Shown: piece by piece, positions 4,674-10,564 of the stretch
Numbering within the stretch: position 1 is the stretch's first letter
How the letters are laid out: every line of letters starts with the position of its first letter
Assembly: GCA_965223845.1 (NCBI GenBank)
Contig: CBDCXR010000004.1
Location: forward strand, 7,168,001 to 7,232,000
Length of the DNA stretch: 64,000 nt
Origin: Planctomycetota bacterium
GTDB lineage: Bacteria > Planctomycetota > UBA8108 > SXIK01
Reading direction: 5' to 3'
Position numbers and translations under genes: made by a program
The notes under the pieces: generated by a model
Databases searched by the model: none
Seen by the model: the letters and a program-made list of their open reading frames with translations, nothing else
What the model was told of the DNA's origin: nothing

Positions 4674-5366
4674 ATGCAGATTCCAGTGACGACGATCCCC
4701 GCTCCTCACCGTTCGACCATTGCCGTCTCGGCGTCTCGAGCTCGCGAGGAGTTTTTCAACAGCCTGACGCACGGCGTGGGATTCCTCCTTACGCTCTTCG
4801 GCGTCCCGGCCCTCATCGCCTGTGCCGCCGGGAATGGAGACGCGTGGACGCTCGTCGGCTGCTCCGTCTACGGCGGCGGGCTCACGGTCATGTATCTCGT
4901 GTCGACGATTTACCACGGTGTCGCCGCGCGACCGAGTCGTGACACCTGGCGGCGACTCGATCATATCTGCATCTTTCTCTTCATCGCCGCGACGTACACG
5001 CCGTTTGCGCTCGTCCACCTGCGCGGTCCTACGGGTTGGCTGATCCTGAGCGTCGTGTGGTCCATCGCACTCGTCGGCATCACCTGCAAGCTCGTCCTCG
5101 AGGTGAACTCGCACTGGGTGTCGACGGTCAGCTACGTGATCATGGGGTGGCTCTGCCTCCTCGTCGTCAAGCCGATGATCGAGTCGGTGCCGCTCGGTGC
5201 GGTGCTCTGGCTCTTTGCCGGAGGGGTGACGTACACGCTCGGAACGGTGTTCTACATCCGCGACCACCGCCCGTACTACCACGTGATTTGGCACTGTTTC
5301 GTGCTCGCCGGCAGCGCGTGTCACTACGTCGCGATCTATTCGTACGTCATTCCGCCGATCGCTTGA
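4674..5366 (+). CDS. Hemolysin III / PAQR family membrane protein
   Basis: EEFFNSLTHG, STIYH, RRLDHICIFLFIAATYTPF and HVIWHCFVLAGS motifs; about 7 TM helices. Confidence 0.93.
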   Translation: MQIPVTTIPAPHRSTIAVSASRAREEFFNSLTHGVGFLLTLFGVPALIACAAGNGDAWTLVGCSVYGGGLTVMYLVSTIYHGVAARPSRDTWRRLDHICIFLFIAATYTPFALVHLRGPTGWLILSVVWSIALVGITCKLVLEVNSHWVSTVSYVIMGWLCLLVVKPMIESVPLGAVLWLFAGGVTYTLGTVFYIRDHRPYYHVIWHCFVLAGSACHYVAIYSYVIPPIA

Positions 5367-5384
5367 TCGACCGGAAGCCGGTGT

Positions 5385-5822
5385 TCAGTCGAACGATCCG
5401 CTCGCGATCGCCTCGCGAATCCGCTTTTTGAGTTCGTCGCGGACGAGCCGCGCGGTGCGCAGTTGCTCGTCTTCGTCATCGATCGCGGCGGGATCGGGAA
5501 GCGGCCACCGGAGTCGGGTCACCTCGCCGGGGAACACCGGGCAGTCGCGATCCGCGTTGCTGCAGACGCTCACGATGACGTGTGGGGTGACTTCCGACGG
5601 CGGGAGAAACTCGTCGATGCTCTTCGAGCGATGCGCCGAAAGATCGATGCCGAGCTCGGCCATCACCGTCGTTGCAACCGTATGGATCGTACCGGACGGA
5701 CGCGCACCGGCGGATTGGGCGACATAGCGGTCGCCACCCTCGTGTCGGAGGAGGGCCTCGCCCATGTGGCTGCGACAGGAGTTTCCGGTGCAGAGAAATA
5801 AGACTCGTCTTCGTGCATCCAT
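5385..5822 (-). CDS. arsC: Arsenate reductase ArsC / LMW-PTP fold
   Basis: VLFLCTGNSCRSHM, VC..A...CPVFPG and WPLPDP motifs. Confidence 0.85.
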   Translation of the reverse strand: MDARRRVLFLCTGNSCRSHMGEALLRHEGGDRYVAQSAGARPSGTIHTVATTVMAELGIDLSAHRSKSIDEFLPPSEVTPHVIVSVCSNADRDCPVFPGEVTRLRWPLPDPAAIDDEDEQLRTARLVRDELKKRIREAIASGSFD

Positions 5823-5992
5823 GCTTCGCCTCGATGAGTTCGGTGCGTTTCCCGCGCGGGAGTGTACCCGATCGGTCGCGCGGGAGAACGTGGCGGATTC
5901 CTTCCGCCGCGCGCAATCCGAAGCCGCGGGCGTTCGCACCTCGCGACGTGTGGAGGCGTTGTTTGGCCTGCGGTTTTTCCTTATTTCTTGGC

Positions 5993-6021
5993 TTGACGAA
6001 GAGAATCGGAGCGTCTATCGT
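5993..6021 (+). promoter_or_regulatory. Sigma70-type promoter with AT-rich UP-like tract
   Basis: TTGACG (5993-5998), 17-bp spacer, TATCGT (6016-6021), preceded by TTTTTCCTTATTTCTT, which is unusual in this GC-rich DNA. Confidence 0.65.
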
Positions 6022-6027
6022 CGATTT

Positions 6028-6830
6028 CACTTGCGGGCGCAAAGGCGTCCGCTAAGAATCCGCGACCGGAACGGAAACGCGGGTTCGCGCTCCGGCGGTT
6101 CAGAGGCCGCGTCGAAACGAACGCGGGGTCAACGCCGGAGGTCGGAGGGCGCTCGGTCGCACCTCCTTGCAGAAGCTCAGGGTTGAGGCTCGGACAATCG
6201 CGCTCGATTCGCGTGCGCGACGGGGCGCCGAGCGGTCAATCGTATGGCCGACGCCGTCGAGAGCGGTTACCGGCCCGCGAATTCGAGTTGGCTTGAACAA
6301 GTCTCGACGCTTTGTCGAAGAGAGAAGAGGCCGAGAGGCGGTCTCGTCGGTTAAAAGAGGCGGCTGCACAGCCCGCACCGCCTGACCGAAGCCGCGACGA
6401 GAGTTTGCCACTGCCGCTAAGACACAGCTTCCCGACGTCAGCGGAACACGAACAGTCGCGGCGCCCCGTCGTCGCGCACCGGTCCGCTGAAGCGGAGCGC
6501 CGAGACGACTTAGATACACGGGCGCTTACAGAACCAGCGGGGACTGCGACCTGAATCCGGCGCGGTGCCGGCTGTAGAACGGCCGGCGATCGATGTCCGA
6601 CCTTCGACGCGACGGCAAAGGATTGCAGTCTCGGATCGACCGAGCGGTCGGCTGAACTCGTGCATGCTCGCACCGCGTGCATGCTGGTGACGGTCACCTG
6701 ACTCTTGCGAGTCGCGGTGACGGTCTCGAGTTGGGAAACACTGACGTGGACGCTACCCTCGTGACCTGTCGTCGTGAGGTCCGATGCGTGAGGGATCGAT
6801 GTCCGACCGAAGCGTTGCACGCATGCGAGA
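6028..6830 (+). ncRNA. Candidate large structured ncRNA or very long 5' leader (~800 nt), family unassigned
   Basis: No credible ORF; a continuous series of hairpins with G-U pairs; an 18-bp long-range helix (6213-6230 with 6459-6479); a repeated 15-mer; starts just after a sigma70 promoter. Confidence 0.5.
6588..6808 (+). repeat. Exact 15-bp direct repeat GATCGATGTCCGACC (6588-6602 and 6794-6808)
   Basis: Read directly from the sequence. A 10-mer, GGTGACGGTC, also repeats at 6686-6695 and 6716-6725. Confidence 0.8.
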
Positions 6831-6847
6831 ATTGAAGAGGCAGACGG

Positions 6848-9800
6848 TTGGCTAGCACGCCGAGCGACAAGTCCGCGAAGAAGAAGTCAAAGAAGAAGAC
6901 TTCGACCGGAACGAAGAAGAAGACGTCCAAGTCCGCGGCGACAAAGACGACGAAGTCGACATCGAAAAAGAAGAAGACGACGAAGAAGAAGGTAGCCAAG
7001 AAGACGGCGAAGAAGACGACCAAAAGGTCGGCATCGTCGTCGAGCCCGGCGTCTTCAAAGGCTAAGTCGTCGAAGAACGGGTCCGCGGCGACCGGTGCGA
7101 ACCCGAGCGACGCGCCCACGCCGCCGGAGGTCGCGGAGGGACGGGCCGCGCCGAGGCGATCGGGTGCTCGAAACGCCGGCGCGAACACCGCGCGAGACGA
7201 TGCGAGGTCGCGCTCCGGTGCACGGCCGGCTGCGCGCCGAACCGCAGACGCTAGACCCCGGACGAGTGACGCCGGGGACGCGCCCTCGTCCGGCTCGACT
7301 CGCTCGCCGCGCGATGTCGAGTCCTCGACGACCGTCGAGACGAGGAGCGCTCCTCCCGGCGACGCTCCCTCGCGGCGGGACTCTCGCTATCGCGGCCGAC
7401 GCGGTGAGCCGAGTGGGGGTTCGAACAATGGACGCGCGCCGAATCGTGGACCGCAGAGACGCCCGGCGTCCGGCCCGGGGGGACGCCGAGGTGGGAGGAG
7501 GCGCCCGCCCGGACAGCACGAGGCGCGGCGAGGTGCGTCTCCCGAAGGTGATCTCAACGGGCGCCGCGACGGTTCACCCGCTCGAACTCACTCCTCTCGA
7601 ACCGGGCCGAGCGCTCATCCTCAGCGCGGACGCGGTCCGCGACGTCGTCCCCATCCGCAGCGTTCGCCGCGCCGCCAGCACGGACATCGGGGCGCGCGCG
7701 GCCCGCGACTTCCGGATGGCCCGGCCGGTCTCGTCTACGTCGTCGACGCGAGCGCTCCGATCGGCTCGACCGGAGTCCTCCGCGTCTACTACCGTCAGCC
7801 GAGAGCGGGCGGCGGAGACGCGGGCCGCGGCTCGAAGCAGCAGCGACGGCGCACGGCGTCGTTGACGCCGCTCACCATCGATCGCCAGCTCAGTCGCCAC
7901 GCGAAGCACCCCCTCGACCACCGGATCACCGGCCTTCTTCTCCGCCTCCCGAGGCAGTCGAAGAGCGCGGCGCGCAAGAAGACGCGAGGCCCGCAGAGAA
8001 AAAAGGCTCGCACCAAAATCGTACCGGGAAGCGCCGTGACGGTGACGGAGAAGGCCTGGCGCACCCTGATGCCGTGGTTGCTCGAAACGAAGCGGTTCTT
8101 TCTGCTCCAGCCGGGGAGCCAGCAGCGCGCAGTCCCGGTCATCGAAGAGGAGCTCGTTCCGCTTCAGTTCCATCTTCTCCTCGAGCGCATCAAGAAGCGC
8201 GGCGACTTCCATCTCACCTGCCGCTTTGTGCGCGGTAACAAGACGCTTCTCTACAAGTCGCAAGTGCTCCTCATCACGGACGGCGAAGAGGGCATGTTGC
8301 TCCGGCGGTCGGGTCGTATCAGCAAGGTTCAGTTCGACGGCTCGGTCGCGTGGCTGAAGGCGCTTCGTCGCGGACGATTTCGCCACGTTCCGAAGCGCAA
8401 GATCGCCTCGCTCCTCAAGATCTTCGAGCGATCGACGACGCTGCCGATGGTGCACTTTCCGTCGGTGCTGCGCGTGAAGCCGATCGAGGGCGTCGAGCCG
8501 CGGCCCGAGCTCAAGCTCGATAGCGGCACGCAGGAAGTCGACGCGGAGGTGACCTTTCGCTACGGCGAAAACCTCGTGCGTGCCGCGCGTCCGGGGAAGC
8601 GGTTCTTCTCTCTCAAGCAGCGATGTCTCGTCGTACGCAACCTCGACGCCGAAGGCGCCCGCGCGGTCGAGCTCCTCCAGGCCGGCTTTACGTACGACAA
8701 CAACAAACACTCGTTCGGCCTCTCGGCGGATCTCCTCGTGACCGCGGCCCCCGCGCTGTTCGAGCTCGGGTGGACTCTGCACGGAAAGCGGATGCCGTTC
8801 CGTCCTCCGACCGGGATGGACGTCGACGTTACGACCGGACCCGACTACATCGATGTCGATGTGACGGTGAGGTTCGGCGACCAGAAGATCAAGGTGCCGC
8901 AGCTCCTCGAAGCGATGCGAGAGGGAAACCGGATGATTGTCCTCAAGCAGGGCGTCGTCGGTGTGCTCCCATCCGATTGGATCGAAAAGAATGCGGCGTG
9001 GATGGAGCTCGGTCAGCTCCACGGCGACAAGCTGAGACTTCGCCGCAACCAATCGTCGATGATCGACGCGCTCGTCGAAGAGAACATCAAGGCGCGGCTC
9101 GATCAGGGGTTCAGCTTCGAGAAGAATCGGCTCGAGGGATTCGAGGGCGTCGAGGAGTGCGACCCCACCGACGATTTCTGCGGCGAGCTGCGCGCCTACC
9201 AGCGATTCGGTCTCGGTTGGCTCCGCTTCCTCGACCGGATGGCGTGGGGCGGGTGTCTCGCCGACGATATGGGACTCGGAAAGACCGTGCAGGCCCTCGC
9301 GCTTCTCCAGCTCCACAAGGCGGACGGCCGCGAGGGGACGACGCTCGTCGTCGCGCCGAAATCGCTGATCTTCAACTGGGAGCGCGAGGCGAAGAAGTTC
9401 ACTCCGGATCTGCGCTGTGCGAGCTACCACGGTCCGAAGCGCGCGCAGCTCCTCGAATCGATCGAGGACTACGATCTCCTCTTCACGACCTACGGCACGG
9501 TACGCCAGGACGTCGAGATCCTCTCGCAGCAACAGTTCTTCTACGTGATCCTCGACGAAGCGCAGGCGATTAAGAACGTCGACTCGCAGAACTCGAAGTC
9601 GGCGCGACTCCTCAACGCCGAGCGGCGTCTGATTCTCAGTGGAACGCCGGTCGAGAACCACCTCGGCGAGCTCTGGTCGCTGTTCGATTTCATCAATCCC
9701 GGCATGCTCGGAACCTACGCCGCATTCAAGCGTCGATTCGGCGGGGAGCGCGGCGTCGACTCGGGCAGTCTCGCATTTCTCCGGCGGACGCTCCGGCCGT

Positions 9801-10564
9801 TTATCCTCCGGCGAAAGAAGGAGGAGGTCGCACCGGATCTGCCTCCGCGCTTCGAAGAGACGATCCTCTGCGAGATGGAATCGGAGCAGAAGAAGATCTA
9901 CCGCGAGCTGAAGGAGCGATGTCGAAACTCCGTGCTCGCGCAGGTCAAGGCGAAGGGGATGGCGCGGTCGAAGCTCCACATCCTCGAAGCGCTCCTCCGT
10001 CTCCGCCAGGCCGCTTGCCACCCGGCGCTCATCGACGAAAAGCACGGCGGCGCGGCGTCCGGCAAGATGACCGCCCTTCTCGGCATGCTCGAACAGGTCG
10101 AGGACGAAGGGCACAAGGTGCTCATCTTCTCGCAGTTCACCTCACTCCTCGCGCTCGTCCGAGAGCAGCTTGACGCGGCGGGGCAGGTGTACGAGTACCT
10201 CGACGGTCAGACGCGCGACCGCGCGGAACGCGTCGATCGCTTCCAGAACGATGATTCCTGCCGCGTGTTCCTGATCAGCCTCAAGGCGGGCGGCGTCGGA
10301 CTCAATCTCACCGCGGCGGACTACGTCTTCATTCTCGATCCGTGGTGGAACCCAGCCGTCGAAGCGCAGGCGATCGACCGGGCCCATCGCATTGGGCAAG
10401 ACAAGAAAGTCTTCGCGTACCGCTTCGTCTCCGAGTCGACGATCGAGGAGCGCATCGCCCAGATGCAGGAGTCGAAGCGAAAGCTCGCGGATGCGATCGT
10501 GAGTGCGGACGAGAACATCATGCGCGACATGACGAAAGAGGATCTCGAGGTCCTCTTCAGCTAG
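6848..10564 (+). CDS. SNF2-family (SWI2/SNF2) ATPase with Lys-rich and Arg/Gly-rich N-terminal extension
   Basis: LADDMGLGKT, ILDEAQ, LSGTPVEN, FSQF, SLKAGGVGLNL and DPWWNPAVEAQAIDRAHRIGQ motifs. TTG start with AGAGG 7 nt upstream. Confidence 0.95.
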   Translation: MASTPSDKSAKKKSKKKTSTGTKKKTSKSAATKTTKSTSKKKKTTKKKVAKKTAKKTTKRSASSSSPASSKAKSSKNGSAATGANPSDAPTPPEVAEGRAAPRRSGARNAGANTARDDARSRSGARPAARRTADARPRTSDAGDAPSSGSTRSPRDVESSTTVETRSAPPGDAPSRRDSRYRGRRGEPSGGSNNGRAPNRGPQRRPASGPGGRRGGRRRPPGQHEARRGASPEGDLNGRRDGSPARTHSSRTGPSAHPQRGRGPRRRPHPQRSPRRQHGHRGARGPRLPDGPAGLVYVVDASAPIGSTGVLRVYYRQPRAGGGDAGRGSKQQRRRTASLTPLTIDRQLSRHAKHPLDHRITGLLLRLPRQSKSAARKKTRGPQRKKARTKIVPGSAVTVTEKAWRTLMPWLLETKRFFLLQPGSQQRAVPVIEEELVPLQFHLLLERIKKRGDFHLTCRFVRGNKTLLYKSQVLLITDGEEGMLLRRSGRISKVQFDGSVAWLKALRRGRFRHVPKRKIASLLKIFERSTTLPMVHFPSVLRVKPIEGVEPRPELKLDSGTQEVDAEVTFRYGENLVRAARPGKRFFSLKQRCLVVRNLDAEGARAVELLQAGFTYDNNKHSFGLSADLLVTAAPALFELGWTLHGKRMPFRPPTGMDVDVTTGPDYIDVDVTVRFGDQKIKVPQLLEAMREGNRMIVLKQGVVGVLPSDWIEKNAAWMELGQLHGDKLRLRRNQSSMIDALVEENIKARLDQGFSFEKNRLEGFEGVEECDPTDDFCGELRAYQRFGLGWLRFLDRMAWGGCLADDMGLGKTVQALALLQLHKADGREGTTLVVAPKSLIFNWEREAKKFTPDLRCASYHGPKRAQLLESIEDYDLLFTTYGTVRQDVEILSQQQFFYVILDEAQAIKNVDSQNSKSARLLNAERRLILSGTPVENHLGELWSLFDFINPGMLGTYAAFKRRFGGERGVDSGSLAFLRRTLRPFILRRKKEEVAPDLPPRFEETILCEMESEQKKIYRELKERCRNSVLAQVKAKGMARSKLHILEALLRLRQAACHPALIDEKHGGAASGKMTALLGMLEQVEDEGHKVLIFSQFTSLLALVREQLDAAGQVYEYLDGQTRDRAERVDRFQNDDSCRVFLISLKAGGVGLNLTAADYVFILDPWWNPAVEAQAIDRAHRIGQDKKVFAYRFVSESTIEERIAQMQESKRKLADAIVSADENIMRDMTKEDLEVLFS

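What the first reader, a model, noticed from the sequence alone, without database searches (positions are those of the whole stretch)
5970..6847. Candidate ~800-nt large structured ncRNA behind the best promoter in the window
Seen: the largest gene-free gap in the window begins with an AT-rich tract and TTGACG-N17-TATCGT (predicted start about 6028), then folds almost end to end. Helices: 6033-6040/6045-6052, 6056-6064/6078-6086, 6090-6097/6133-6140; an 18-bp long-range helix 6213-6230/6459-6479 (3-nt bulge) closing a ~230-nt multibranch domain that contains 6343-6349/6395-6401 and 6358-6363/6378-6383; then 6542-6549/6623-6630, 6567-6587, 6757-6765/6771-6779 and 6784-6790/6818-6824. Many stems use G-U pairs on the plus strand and have A-rich linkers, as in functional RNAs. 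I see no tmRNA, RNase P or group II hallmarks. Known: large orphan bacterial RNAs of this size exist (GOLLD, ROOL, OLE, and MISL in Verrucomicrobia). Inference: a new or divergent large ncRNA, or a giant regulatory leader. Caveat: GC-rich DNA forms hairpins by chance.
Basis: partly seen in the sequence, partly recalled or inferred. Interest (0 to 1): 0.8.

Follow-up and report, generated by a model that had tools for sequence, protein, structure and literature searches.

The report
Long structured leader before SNF2 gene
The gap is most likely the promoter and an unusually long (about 820 nt), well-folding but fast-evolving untranslated leader of a planctomycete SNF2 helicase gene, not a conserved large RNA of the GOLLD, ROOL or OLE kind.

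Summary
The sequence features are real. Window 5823-6847 is non-coding. The only sigma-70-like site is TTGACG-N17-TATCGT at 5993-6021. All 10 proposed helices are complementary and 7 of 10 are in the MFE fold.

The case for a conserved large ncRNA fails:
- No Rfam match.
- No DNA homolog in 40 relatives or elsewhere in the genome.
- Folding z is -3.0 on the plus strand but also -2.3 on the minus strand. It lies within the range of 10 other non-coding-like stretches of the same genome, mean -2.8.

What is conserved is the layout. All 6 family orthologs with enough upstream DNA carry one TTGAC-type promoter 610-910 nt upstream of the SNF2 start. The leaders are about 600-890 nt long and cannot be aligned with each other.

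A 23-codon upstream ORF ends on the weak TTG start of SNF2. The same holds in 3 of 6 orthologs.

In a sister genus the equivalent leader holds a roughly 250-nt covarying structure. It is not detectable in the window.

Best reading: a long regulatory 5' leader of the SNF2 mRNA. No RNA data were available.

The parts
5385..5822 (-). Divergent upstream gene: low-molecular-weight phosphatase/ArsC-like (LMWPc). The likely start is at 5822 (MDARRRVLFLCTGNSCRS...).
   Evidence: The ORF is listed as 5385..5939. Pfam LMWPc, E 6.3e-15. The ortholog sits next to SNF2 in G003 and in L038.
5960..5992 (+). T-rich tract directly upstream of the -35 hexamer
   Evidence: Read from the sequence: 18 of 32 bases are A or T, in DNA that is about 64% GC.
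5993..6021 (+). Sigma-70-like promoter TTGACG-N17-TATCGT. The predicted transcript start is about 6028.
   Evidence: It is the only site in 5300-7400, with 0.1 expected. It is the only match to TTGAC-N16-19-TANNNT in the whole 64-kb window on both strands. One equivalent site lies at the same relative place in each of 5 orthologous loci.
6028..6847 (+). Predicted 5' leader of about 820 nt. It is non-coding and folds extensively: 67% of bases are paired in the MFE.
   Evidence: No Rfam match. No tRNA or tmRNA.
6033..6140 (+). Three consecutive stable hairpins at the predicted 5' end: 6033-6052, 6056-6086 and 6090-6140
   Evidence: All are in the MFE with mean pair probability 0.96-0.99. The local window 6000-6199 has z -2.7.
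6213..6479 (.). Long-range helix 6213-6230 with 6459-6479. It is a perfect inverted repeat with a 3-nt bulge and closes a domain of about 230 nt.
   Evidence: pairs I4 and I15. 13 of 18 pairs are in the MFE, with mean probability 0.81. All pairs are Watson-Crick, so the helix says nothing about strand. A perfect inverted repeat of 13 nt or more arises in 4.3% of shuffles.
6588..6602 (+). First copy of the exact 15-nt direct repeat GATCGATGTCCGACC
   Evidence: D3. A direct repeat this long arises in 0.2% of 1000 shuffles. The genome holds only these two copies.
6794..6808 (+). Second copy of the 15-nt direct repeat. It lies inside the upstream ORF and holds an internal ATG preceded by GAGGGA.
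6784..6855 (+). Upstream ORF of 23 codons (MREGSMSDRSVARMRELKRQTVG). Its TAG stop overlaps codons 2-3 of SNF2.
   Evidence: By chance, 2.8% of leader positions have such an ORF ending beside them.
6848..10564 (+). SNF2-family helicase gene with a TTG start and AAGAGG 7 nt upstream. It encodes a Lys-rich N-terminal tail, then a low-complexity R/G/P/S region, then the SNF2_assoc, SNF2-rel_dom and Helicase_C domains.
   Evidence: Codon periodicity begins at about 6850.

Best explanation
Window 5993-6847 is the promoter and a roughly 820-nt 5' untranslated leader of the SNF2-family helicase mRNA.

Proposed mechanism (inferred, not shown):
1. A sigma-70-type promoter at 5993-6021 starts transcription near 6028.
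2. The first 110 nt or so form three stable hairpins, which probably protect the 5' end.
3. The rest folds extensively, but into a lineage-specific shape.
4. At the 3' end a short ORF (6784-6855) is translated and stops on the weak TTG start of SNF2. Production of SNF2 protein would then depend on upstream-ORF translation (termination-reinitiation or coupling) and on the stability and folding of the leader.

Shown here: the region is non-coding, the promoter is conserved, a long leader is conserved in length but not in sequence, and the upstream-ORF geometry exists. Not shown: that the promoter fires, that the transcript runs into SNF2, or that the upstream ORF is translated.
For: 1. Non-coding. 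There is no codon periodicity across 5700-6850. None of the 5 gap ORFs scanned has a Pfam match. tblastx finds no shared peptide between the orthologous leaders except over the promoter of one pair. The long minus-strand ORFs are unrelated to each other.
2. Promoter. It is the only sigma-70-like site in 5300-7400, with 0.1 expected. TTGAC-N16-19-TANNNT occurs exactly once in each of the 6 family loci, counting both strands and the whole 64-kb window. It is always on the SNF2 strand, 610-910 nt before the SNF2 start.
3. The promoter goes with SNF2, not with the neighbour. The upstream gene is LMWPc in the window, G003 and L038, but an ILV_EDD dehydratase in G001.
4. Leader length. From predicted start to start codon the leaders measure 821, 887, 829, 849, 769 and about 603 nt. 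All lack periodicity.
5. No plus-strand terminator-like site lies between 6028 and 6847.
6. Upstream ORF. An ATG-started ORF of 20 or more codons ends within 5 nt of the SNF2 start in 3 of 6 orthologs. These are exactly the three with TTG or GTG starts. The null rate is 2.8% per position, giving P about 4e-4 for 3 or more of 6, with thresholds chosen after the fact.
7. Folding. The six leaders average z -2.7 against -0.5 for 9 random genome pieces. All six are purine-rich on the SNF2 strand.
8. Sister genus. In genus g5, 10 of 10 genomes hold a single-copy element of about 250 nt in the SNF2 leader. In the 9 aligned sequences 95.9% of cells are paired, and 12 pairs change on both sides (shuffles give 7.0, with 2 of 500 reaching 12; slid controls give 1-6). 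Several G-U pairs are invariant, and these exist only on the SNF2 strand.
Against: - There are no expression data. No RNA run was listed, and the laid contigs say nothing about transcripts.
- The leader bodies share no detectable sequence. blastn finds 0 hits at E <= 0.05 among all 15 pairs. Relaxed searches find only the promoter of one pair. No shared 10-16-mers exceed chance. The specific fold is therefore not conserved and may not matter.
- The z-score is not special. The minus strand gives -2.3. Ten other non-periodic stretches of the genome average -2.8. Two of the six leaders are weak, at -1.07 and -1.85.
- The strict promoter motif is not enriched genome-wide: 5 hits against 5.1 expected. 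It cannot be called this organism's standard promoter, and planctomycete promoters are poorly known.
- The predicted fold does not hide the ribosome-binding sites or start codons more than the average base: P(paired) is 0.56-0.69 against 0.65 overall.
- Start codons in L041, L043 and G001 are uncertain, because their N-terminal regions lack periodicity.
- The upstream-ORF pattern rests on only 6 sequences.
Confidence: 0.55

Rival explanations
1. A stand-alone, lineage-specific large structured ncRNA of about 800 nt is transcribed from the 5993-6021 promoter and ends before SNF2. SNF2 has its own unrecognised promoter.
For: - The promoter is conserved.
- The predicted fold is extensive, with z -3.0.
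- Leader length is similar in 5 of 6 orthologs, at 769-887 nt.
- The window's leader has an exact 15-nt repeat and an 18-bp long-range helix.
- In genus g5 the equivalent region holds a covarying element.
Against: - No Rfam family matches.
- No homolog turned up in 40 relatives, or in the orthologous leaders by blastn, tblastx, k-mer search or covariance model.
- Known large bacterial RNAs keep conserved cores at far greater divergence (my own knowledge).
- No terminator-like site lies before SNF2.
- The upstream ORF that stops on the SNF2 start argues that the 3' end belongs to the mRNA.
- The z-score is ordinary for this genome's non-coding DNA.
Confidence: 0.12
2. The gap is a neutral spacer. 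The promoter simply lies far from the gene, or is not used. The hairpins are what GC-rich non-coding DNA gives, and the leader sequence has no function of its own.
For: - The leader bodies show no sequence conservation at all, while the adjacent protein is 47-72% identical.
- The z-score sits within the range of other non-periodic stretches and is similar on both strands.
- The genome has 45 non-periodic runs of 1000 nt or more, so long gaps are not rare in it.
Against: - A leader of 600-890 nt persists in 6 of 6 orthologs despite saturated sequence divergence, whereas neutral DNA would be expected to drift in length.
- The upstream-ORF and start-codon geometry recurs.
- The leaders fold better than random genome pieces.
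- In genus g5 a block in the leader is more conserved than the protein's N-terminus: about 73% DNA identity against 55% protein identity.
Confidence: 0.2
3. The gap is a DNA-level control region. The two exact 15-bp repeats (6588-6602 and 6794-6808) and the inverted repeats are protein-binding sites acting on a proximal SNF2 promoter.
For: - The 15-bp exact repeat is very unlikely by chance, arising in 0.2% of shuffles.
- It is unique to this locus in the genome.
- The copies lie 206 bp apart, just upstream of the gene.
- The inverted repeats are all Watson-Crick, so they would work equally well in DNA.
Against: - No second promoter-like site exists between 6028 and 6848.
- The repeats are absent from 4 of the 5 other leaders; L041 has a 13-nt repeat.
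- Nothing identifies a binding protein.
Confidence: 0.1
4. The gap holds a missed or decayed protein-coding gene.
For: ORFs of 139 and 194 aa exist on the minus strand. Minus-strand ORFs of 132-143 aa lie at a similar place in 4 of 6 leaders.
Against: - There is no codon periodicity.
- There are no Pfam matches.
- The minus-strand ORF products are unrelated to each other.
- tblastx finds nothing outside the promoter.
- The plus strand is purine-rich, which makes stop codons rare on the minus strand and explains the long ORFs.
Confidence: 0.03

Closest known systems
Long structured 5' untranslated leaders of bacterial mRNAs
   Same: A promoter sits hundreds of nucleotides upstream of the start codon with no gene in between. 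The leader folds extensively and has hairpins at the extreme 5' end.
   Different: At about 820 nt it is longer than most described cases. The long leader persists across several genera while its sequence does not. No regulator or signal is known.
Translational coupling or reinitiation through an upstream ORF that ends at the main start codon
   Same: An ATG-started ORF of 23 codons with a GAGG-type site ahead of it stops 5 nt into SNF2, which starts with a weak TTG. The same geometry appears in the 2 other orthologs with TTG or GTG starts.
   Different: The peptide is not conserved. Translation was not tested. SNF2 also has its own AAGAGG site upstream of the TTG.
Large orphan bacterial ncRNAs (GOLLD, ROOL, OLE, HEARO; Rfam families). 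For GOLLD, ROOL and OLE I saw only the search listing and the start of the abstract of PMC12286853.
   Same: Similar size class (600-900 nt), many predicted helices, non-coding.
   Different: No covariance-model match. No conserved core among orthologous loci. It is tied to one gene's 5' end rather than free-standing.
The SNF2-leader element of sister genus g5
   Same: It sits in the same place, in the long non-coding leader of the orthologous SNF2 gene and on the same strand. It is a multi-stem domain of about 250 nt closed by a long-range helix. The window has a domain of about 230 nt closed by the 6213/6479 helix.
   Different: The model finds nothing in the window, in the other 3 family genomes or in the other genera of the order, even with filters off. 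The promoter sequence differs. Homology is unproven.

Membership tests
Any Rfam 15 family (including GOLLD, ROOL, OLE, HEARO, RNase P, tmRNA, 6S, riboswitches) | Covariance-model match at the family's gathering score | tested here: not met
   There are 0 matches in the whole 64-kb window. At E <= 10 in 5500-7300 there are 3 weak matches (E 5.7-9.9), none inside 5970-6847.
tRNA / tmRNA | ARAGORN detection | tested here: not met
   0 genes in 5000-7500.
Conserved structured ncRNA (generic) | Alignable homologs in related genomes | tested here: not met
   - 0 of 40 relatives match the DNA.
- 0 blastn hits at E <= 0.05 among the 15 pairs of orthologous leaders.
- Only one pair's promoter matches under relaxed settings.
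- No shared 10-16-mers exceed chance.
- The single-sequence model R1 of 6028-6145 finds nothing in the orthologous loci searched.
Conserved structured ncRNA (generic) | Covariation supporting the helices | not testable with these tools
   There is no alignable homolog of the window's leader, and its genus has only this genome in the collections.
Conserved structured ncRNA (generic) | Folding energy beyond the background of the same genome | tested here: inconclusive
   z is -2.99 on the plus strand and -2.31 on the minus strand. That is better than 9 random pieces, mean -0.5. It is within 10 other non-periodic stretches, mean -2.8.
5' leader (5' UTR) of the SNF2 mRNA | A promoter oriented toward the gene, with no gene or terminator in between | tested here: met
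   The promoter is conserved in 6 of 6 usable orthologous loci.
5' leader (5' UTR) of the SNF2 mRNA | One continuous transcript from about 6028 into SNF2 | not testable with these tools
   No RNA run was listed. The laid runs are contigs only.
Upstream-ORF coupling | An upstream ORF whose stop overlaps or abuts the main start codon | tested here: met
   The ORF at 6784-6855 stops at +5 of TTG 6848. The same is seen in G003 (+5) and G001 (-4). It is absent from the 3 orthologs with ATG starts. The null rate is 2.8% per position.
Upstream-ORF coupling | The upstream ORF is translated and affects the main ORF | not testable with these tools
   This needs ribosome profiling or reporter fusions.
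   The best hit in the window's region or in other genera has E 0.2 (8 bits) and is not full-length, with filters off. In whole genomes, 10 of 10 g5 genomes match and 0 of the 11 other genomes of the order do, the window's included.

The most novel reading that the evidence does not exclude
The SNF2 helicase gene of this planctomycete order carries a functionally conserved but very fast-evolving structured RNA leader of 500-900 nt. Its fold is kept within genera, as in the covarying 250-nt element of g5, and is remodelled beyond recognition between genera. On this reading the window's 820-nt leader, with its 5' hairpins, closed 230-nt domain, paired 15-nt repeats and terminal upstream ORF, is one lineage's version of a cis-acting RNA switch that sets the level of a chromatin-remodeller-like protein.
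Probability: 0.3. Interest if true: 0.55.

Novelty: new member of a known kind. Interest (0 to 1): 0.3.

Why it matters
If this is right, it is a clear bacterial case of a very long 5' leader that is kept across several genera while its sequence turns over completely. It is attached to a SNF2-family ATPase with a histone-H1-like tail, in a phylum whose gene regulation is almost unstudied.

It also gives a concrete test. Once a second genome of the window's genus is available, the covariation test can be run, as it could be for genus g5.

It does not add a new member to the GOLLD/ROOL/OLE class of large RNAs. The practical lesson for the scan is that a folding z-score near -3 and a list of hairpins are ordinary for long non-coding stretches of this GC-rich genome.

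Tried and rejected
- Rfam at gathering and at permissive thresholds found nothing in the gap. It also found nothing relevant in 5 related loci: 2 weak matches at E 0.7-0.76, neither in a leader.
- Public runs: no RNA holder was listed. The four laid runs are contigs. X1 spans the stretch identically and may be the source of the assembly. X4 has no contig over 5993-6839. X5 and X6 touch only the Lys-rich coding repeats or small pieces. None of this bears on expression.
- DNA search of 40 relatives and of the window's own genome found only the region itself.
- Alignment of the leaders gave about 40% identity, the random level. blastn, tblastx and a k-mer scan found nothing beyond the promoter.
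- Four of the 8 metagenome loci (L037, L039, L040, L042) were dropped from the leader comparison because their contigs end inside or just before the SNF2 N-terminus. L044 and L046 are the same contig as G001's.
- The single-sequence covariance model R1 (window 6028-6145) found no hits in the orthologous loci searched. The alignment prepared for a 3' model (A2) was never built into a model.
- The g5 model R2 found nothing in the window or in other genera.
- Minus-strand ORFs at similar places in 4 of 6 leaders are unrelated proteins, so I rejected them as a gene.
- The strict promoter motif is not enriched genome-wide, with 5 hits against 5.1 expected. I rejected the idea that it marks a promoter class.
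- I tested whether the fold hides the SD or start sites, or pairs the two 15-nt repeats alternately. There is no particular sequestration, so I dropped that idea as a claim.
- Literature. Searches were listings only. One search gave passages of PMC10632474, which say nothing about leaders. I found nothing on planctomycete 5' leaders in those searches. One search listed no paper on a 'MISL' RNA of Verrucomicrobia among the 10 shown of 4,091, so I could neither confirm nor deny that name. One search was a listing plus abstract starts for GOLLD, ROOL and OLE. Supplementary files were not consulted.
Full report
**What is at the coordinates**

The window lies in a 7.9-Mb genome. Its nearest relatives are labelled Planctomycetota or Planctomycetia MAGs.

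- The gap is bounded on the left by a minus-strand LMWPc/ArsC-like phosphatase gene (Pfam E 6.3e-15). Its conserved N-terminus starts at about 5822.
- On the right is a plus-strand SNF2-family helicase gene starting at TTG 6848 (SNF2_assoc, SNF2-rel_dom and Helicase_C).
- Between them, 5823-6847, the three codon positions have equal GC content. Both flanking genes show strong periodicity.
- The 5 ORFs inside the gap that I scanned have no Pfam match.
- My crude genome-wide periodicity scan finds this to be the only non-periodic run of 800 nt or more in the window's range. It is one of 45 runs of 1000 nt or more in the genome.

- The promoter-like site TTGACG-N17-TATCGT at 5993-6021 is the only one in 5300-7400, with 0.1 expected.
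- All ten helices are complementary. Seven are in the MFE structure with mean pair probabilities of 0.57-0.99, and three are not.
- The long-range helix 6213-6230 with 6459-6479 is a perfect inverted repeat with a 3-nt bulge.
- ARAGORN finds no tRNA or tmRNA.
- Rfam finds nothing at gathering score in the whole window and nothing inside the gap even at E <= 10.

**Is the folding more than chance?**

- With 100 dinucleotide shuffles the 820-nt stretch has z -2.99 on the plus strand and -2.31 on the minus strand. No shuffle reached either value. The tool's own 20 shuffles gave -2.58 and -1.98.
- Locally, only 2 of 9 windows of 200 nt stand out: 6000-6199 (z -2.7) and 6600-6799 (z -2.5 on plus, -2.3 on minus).
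- Nine random 820-nt pieces of the genome average z -0.5.
- Ten other long non-periodic stretches average -2.8, ranging from -0.6 to -6.0, with 4 of 10 at or below -2.7.
- So the leader folds better than coding DNA but no better than this genome's other non-coding-like DNA. The signal is only weakly strand-specific.
- Two internal repeats are unusual. The 13-nt perfect inverted repeat arises in 4.3% of 1000 shuffles. The exact 15-nt direct repeat GATCGATGTCCGACC (6588-6602 and 6794-6808) arises in 0.2%. The genome holds no other copy of it.

**Comparative evidence**

- The gap's DNA matches nothing in 40 relatives and nothing else in its own genome.
- I located orthologs of the SNF2 gene through its specific middle region (24 of 41 genomes). 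I also searched metagenome contigs (8 loci) and genome contigs (2 loci).
- Six loci of the window's family reach far enough upstream: the window, G003, G001 (the same contig as L044 and L046), L038, L041 and L043. Four metagenome contigs end too early and were dropped.
- In each of the six, the pattern TTGAC-N16-19-TANNNT occurs exactly once, counting both strands of the entire locus and of the 64-kb window. It is always on the SNF2 strand, 610-910 nt before the SNF2 start.
- The promoter travels with SNF2, not with the neighbour. The upstream gene is the LMWPc gene in the window, G003 and L038, but a dehydratase gene in G001.
- Predicted leader lengths are 821, 887, 829, 849, 769 and about 603 nt. 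The last three depend on less certain start codons.
- All six leaders lack codon periodicity and are purine-rich on the SNF2 strand.
- The leader bodies cannot be aligned. MAFFT identity is about 40%. blastn gives no hit at E <= 0.05 in 15 pairs. Relaxed blastn and tblastx recover only the promoter of the G001/L041 pair. No 10-16-mer is shared beyond chance.
- The SNF2 proteins themselves are 47-72% identical.
- A single-sequence covariance model of the window's 5' hairpin cluster finds nothing in the orthologous loci searched.
- The six leaders have z-scores of -2.99, -1.07, -3.69, -1.85, -3.25 and -3.41.

**An upstream ORF at the 3' end**

- In the window an ATG-started ORF of 23 codons (6784-6855) stops at TAG, 5 nt into SNF2. 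SNF2 starts with a weak TTG.
- G003 (GTG start) has a 42-codon ATG ORF stopping at the same +5 position.
- G001 (TTG start) has a 42-codon ATG ORF stopping at -4.
- The three orthologs with ATG starts have none.
- Among all positions in the six leaders, 2.8% have such an ORF ending beside them. Three or more of six therefore has P about 4e-4, though I chose the thresholds after seeing the data.
- This geometry is what termination-reinitiation or translational coupling needs. It argues that the 3' part of the gap belongs to the SNF2 mRNA.
- The predicted fold does not specifically bury the ribosome-binding sites or start codons.

**A sister genus as an indirect test**

- The orthologous SNF2 genes of the other family in the order also sit behind 500-1300 nt without periodicity.
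- In genus g5 the upstream regions can be aligned. Besides the upstream gene, a block of about 330 nt inside the leader is conserved at about 73% DNA identity between sub-lineages whose SNF2 N-termini are only about 55% identical.
- The block has no conserved ORF and no three-base substitution pattern, and no Rfam match.
- RNAalifold predicts 80 pairs, 16 with compensatory changes.
- On the 259-column core, 95.9% of cells are paired. Twelve pairs change on both sides, against 7.0 in shuffles (2 of 500 reach 12) and 1-6 when partners are slid. Several invariant G-U pairs exist only on the SNF2 strand.
- The model built from it (R2) finds one copy in 10 of 10 g5 genomes, one of which was not used to build it. 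It finds none in the other 11 genomes of the order, the window's included. Filters-off searches of the leaders also find none.
- So a structured RNA in this gene's leader is supported for g5. It is genus-specific, and its homology to the window's leader is unproven. The support rests on only three sub-lineages.

**Interpretation**

The best-supported reading is that 5993-6847 is the promoter and an unusually long, strongly folding 5' leader of the SNF2 mRNA. Its 5' end carries stabilising hairpins, and its 3' end carries an upstream ORF that feeds or gates the weak start codon. Confidence is 0.55.

- Shown: the region is non-coding, the promoter is conserved, the long leader persists in length, and the upstream-ORF geometry exists.
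- Inferred: that it is transcribed, that the transcript continues into SNF2, that the upstream ORF is translated, and any regulatory role.

The rivals are:
- a neutral spacer (0.20);
- a stand-alone lineage-specific ncRNA (0.12);
- a DNA-level operator region using the 15-bp repeats (0.10);
- a missed gene (0.03).

The claim of a conserved large ncRNA comparable to GOLLD, ROOL or OLE fails the tests that could be run. The covariation test could not be run, because the window's genus has no second genome in any collection I could search.

**Limits**

- No RNA-seq holder was listed.
- Literature searches gave nothing on planctomycete leaders.
- Supplementary files were not consulted.

Noticed in passing
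L034:2237-2486 (-), L033:4031-4276 (+), L035:3804-4056 (+) and 7 more g5 loci (L051-L060): A conserved, covarying, single-copy structured element of about 250 nt lies in the 5' leader of the orthologous SNF2 gene in 10 of 10 genomes of sister genus g5. It has no Rfam match and is a candidate new cis-regulatory RNA motif.
   Followed up: partly
window 6848-7800: The SNF2 protein begins with a histone-H1-like Lys-rich tail (KKKSKKKTS...KKKKTTKKK). A low-complexity Arg/Gly/Pro/Ser region of about 250 aa follows. There GC is high at codon positions 1 and 2, so the usual third-position signal fades. The Lys-rich start is shared by G003 and L038.
   Followed up: partly
G000:C4:3368311-3369360, C4:3331771-3332940, C4:2038291-2039460 (outside the window): Three non-periodic stretches used as folding controls have much stronger folding z-scores than the finding: -6.0, -5.8 and -4.6. 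They may be repeats or genuinely structured elements.
   Followed up: no
window 6588-6602 and 6794-6808: An exact 15-nt direct repeat is unique to this locus in the genome. Each copy holds an ATG followed by TCC GAC (Met-Ser-Asp). Its function is unknown.
   Followed up: partly
window 6868-7119: A 252-nt contig in coded run X5 (a different study) matches with 6 differences. A close relative therefore exists in another sample, but no contig there covered the leader.
   Followed up: no
window 5933-5954: A plus-strand terminator-like hairpin followed by a T-run lies just upstream of the promoter, inside the divergent promoter region of the LMWPc gene. Its meaning is unclear.
   Followed up: no
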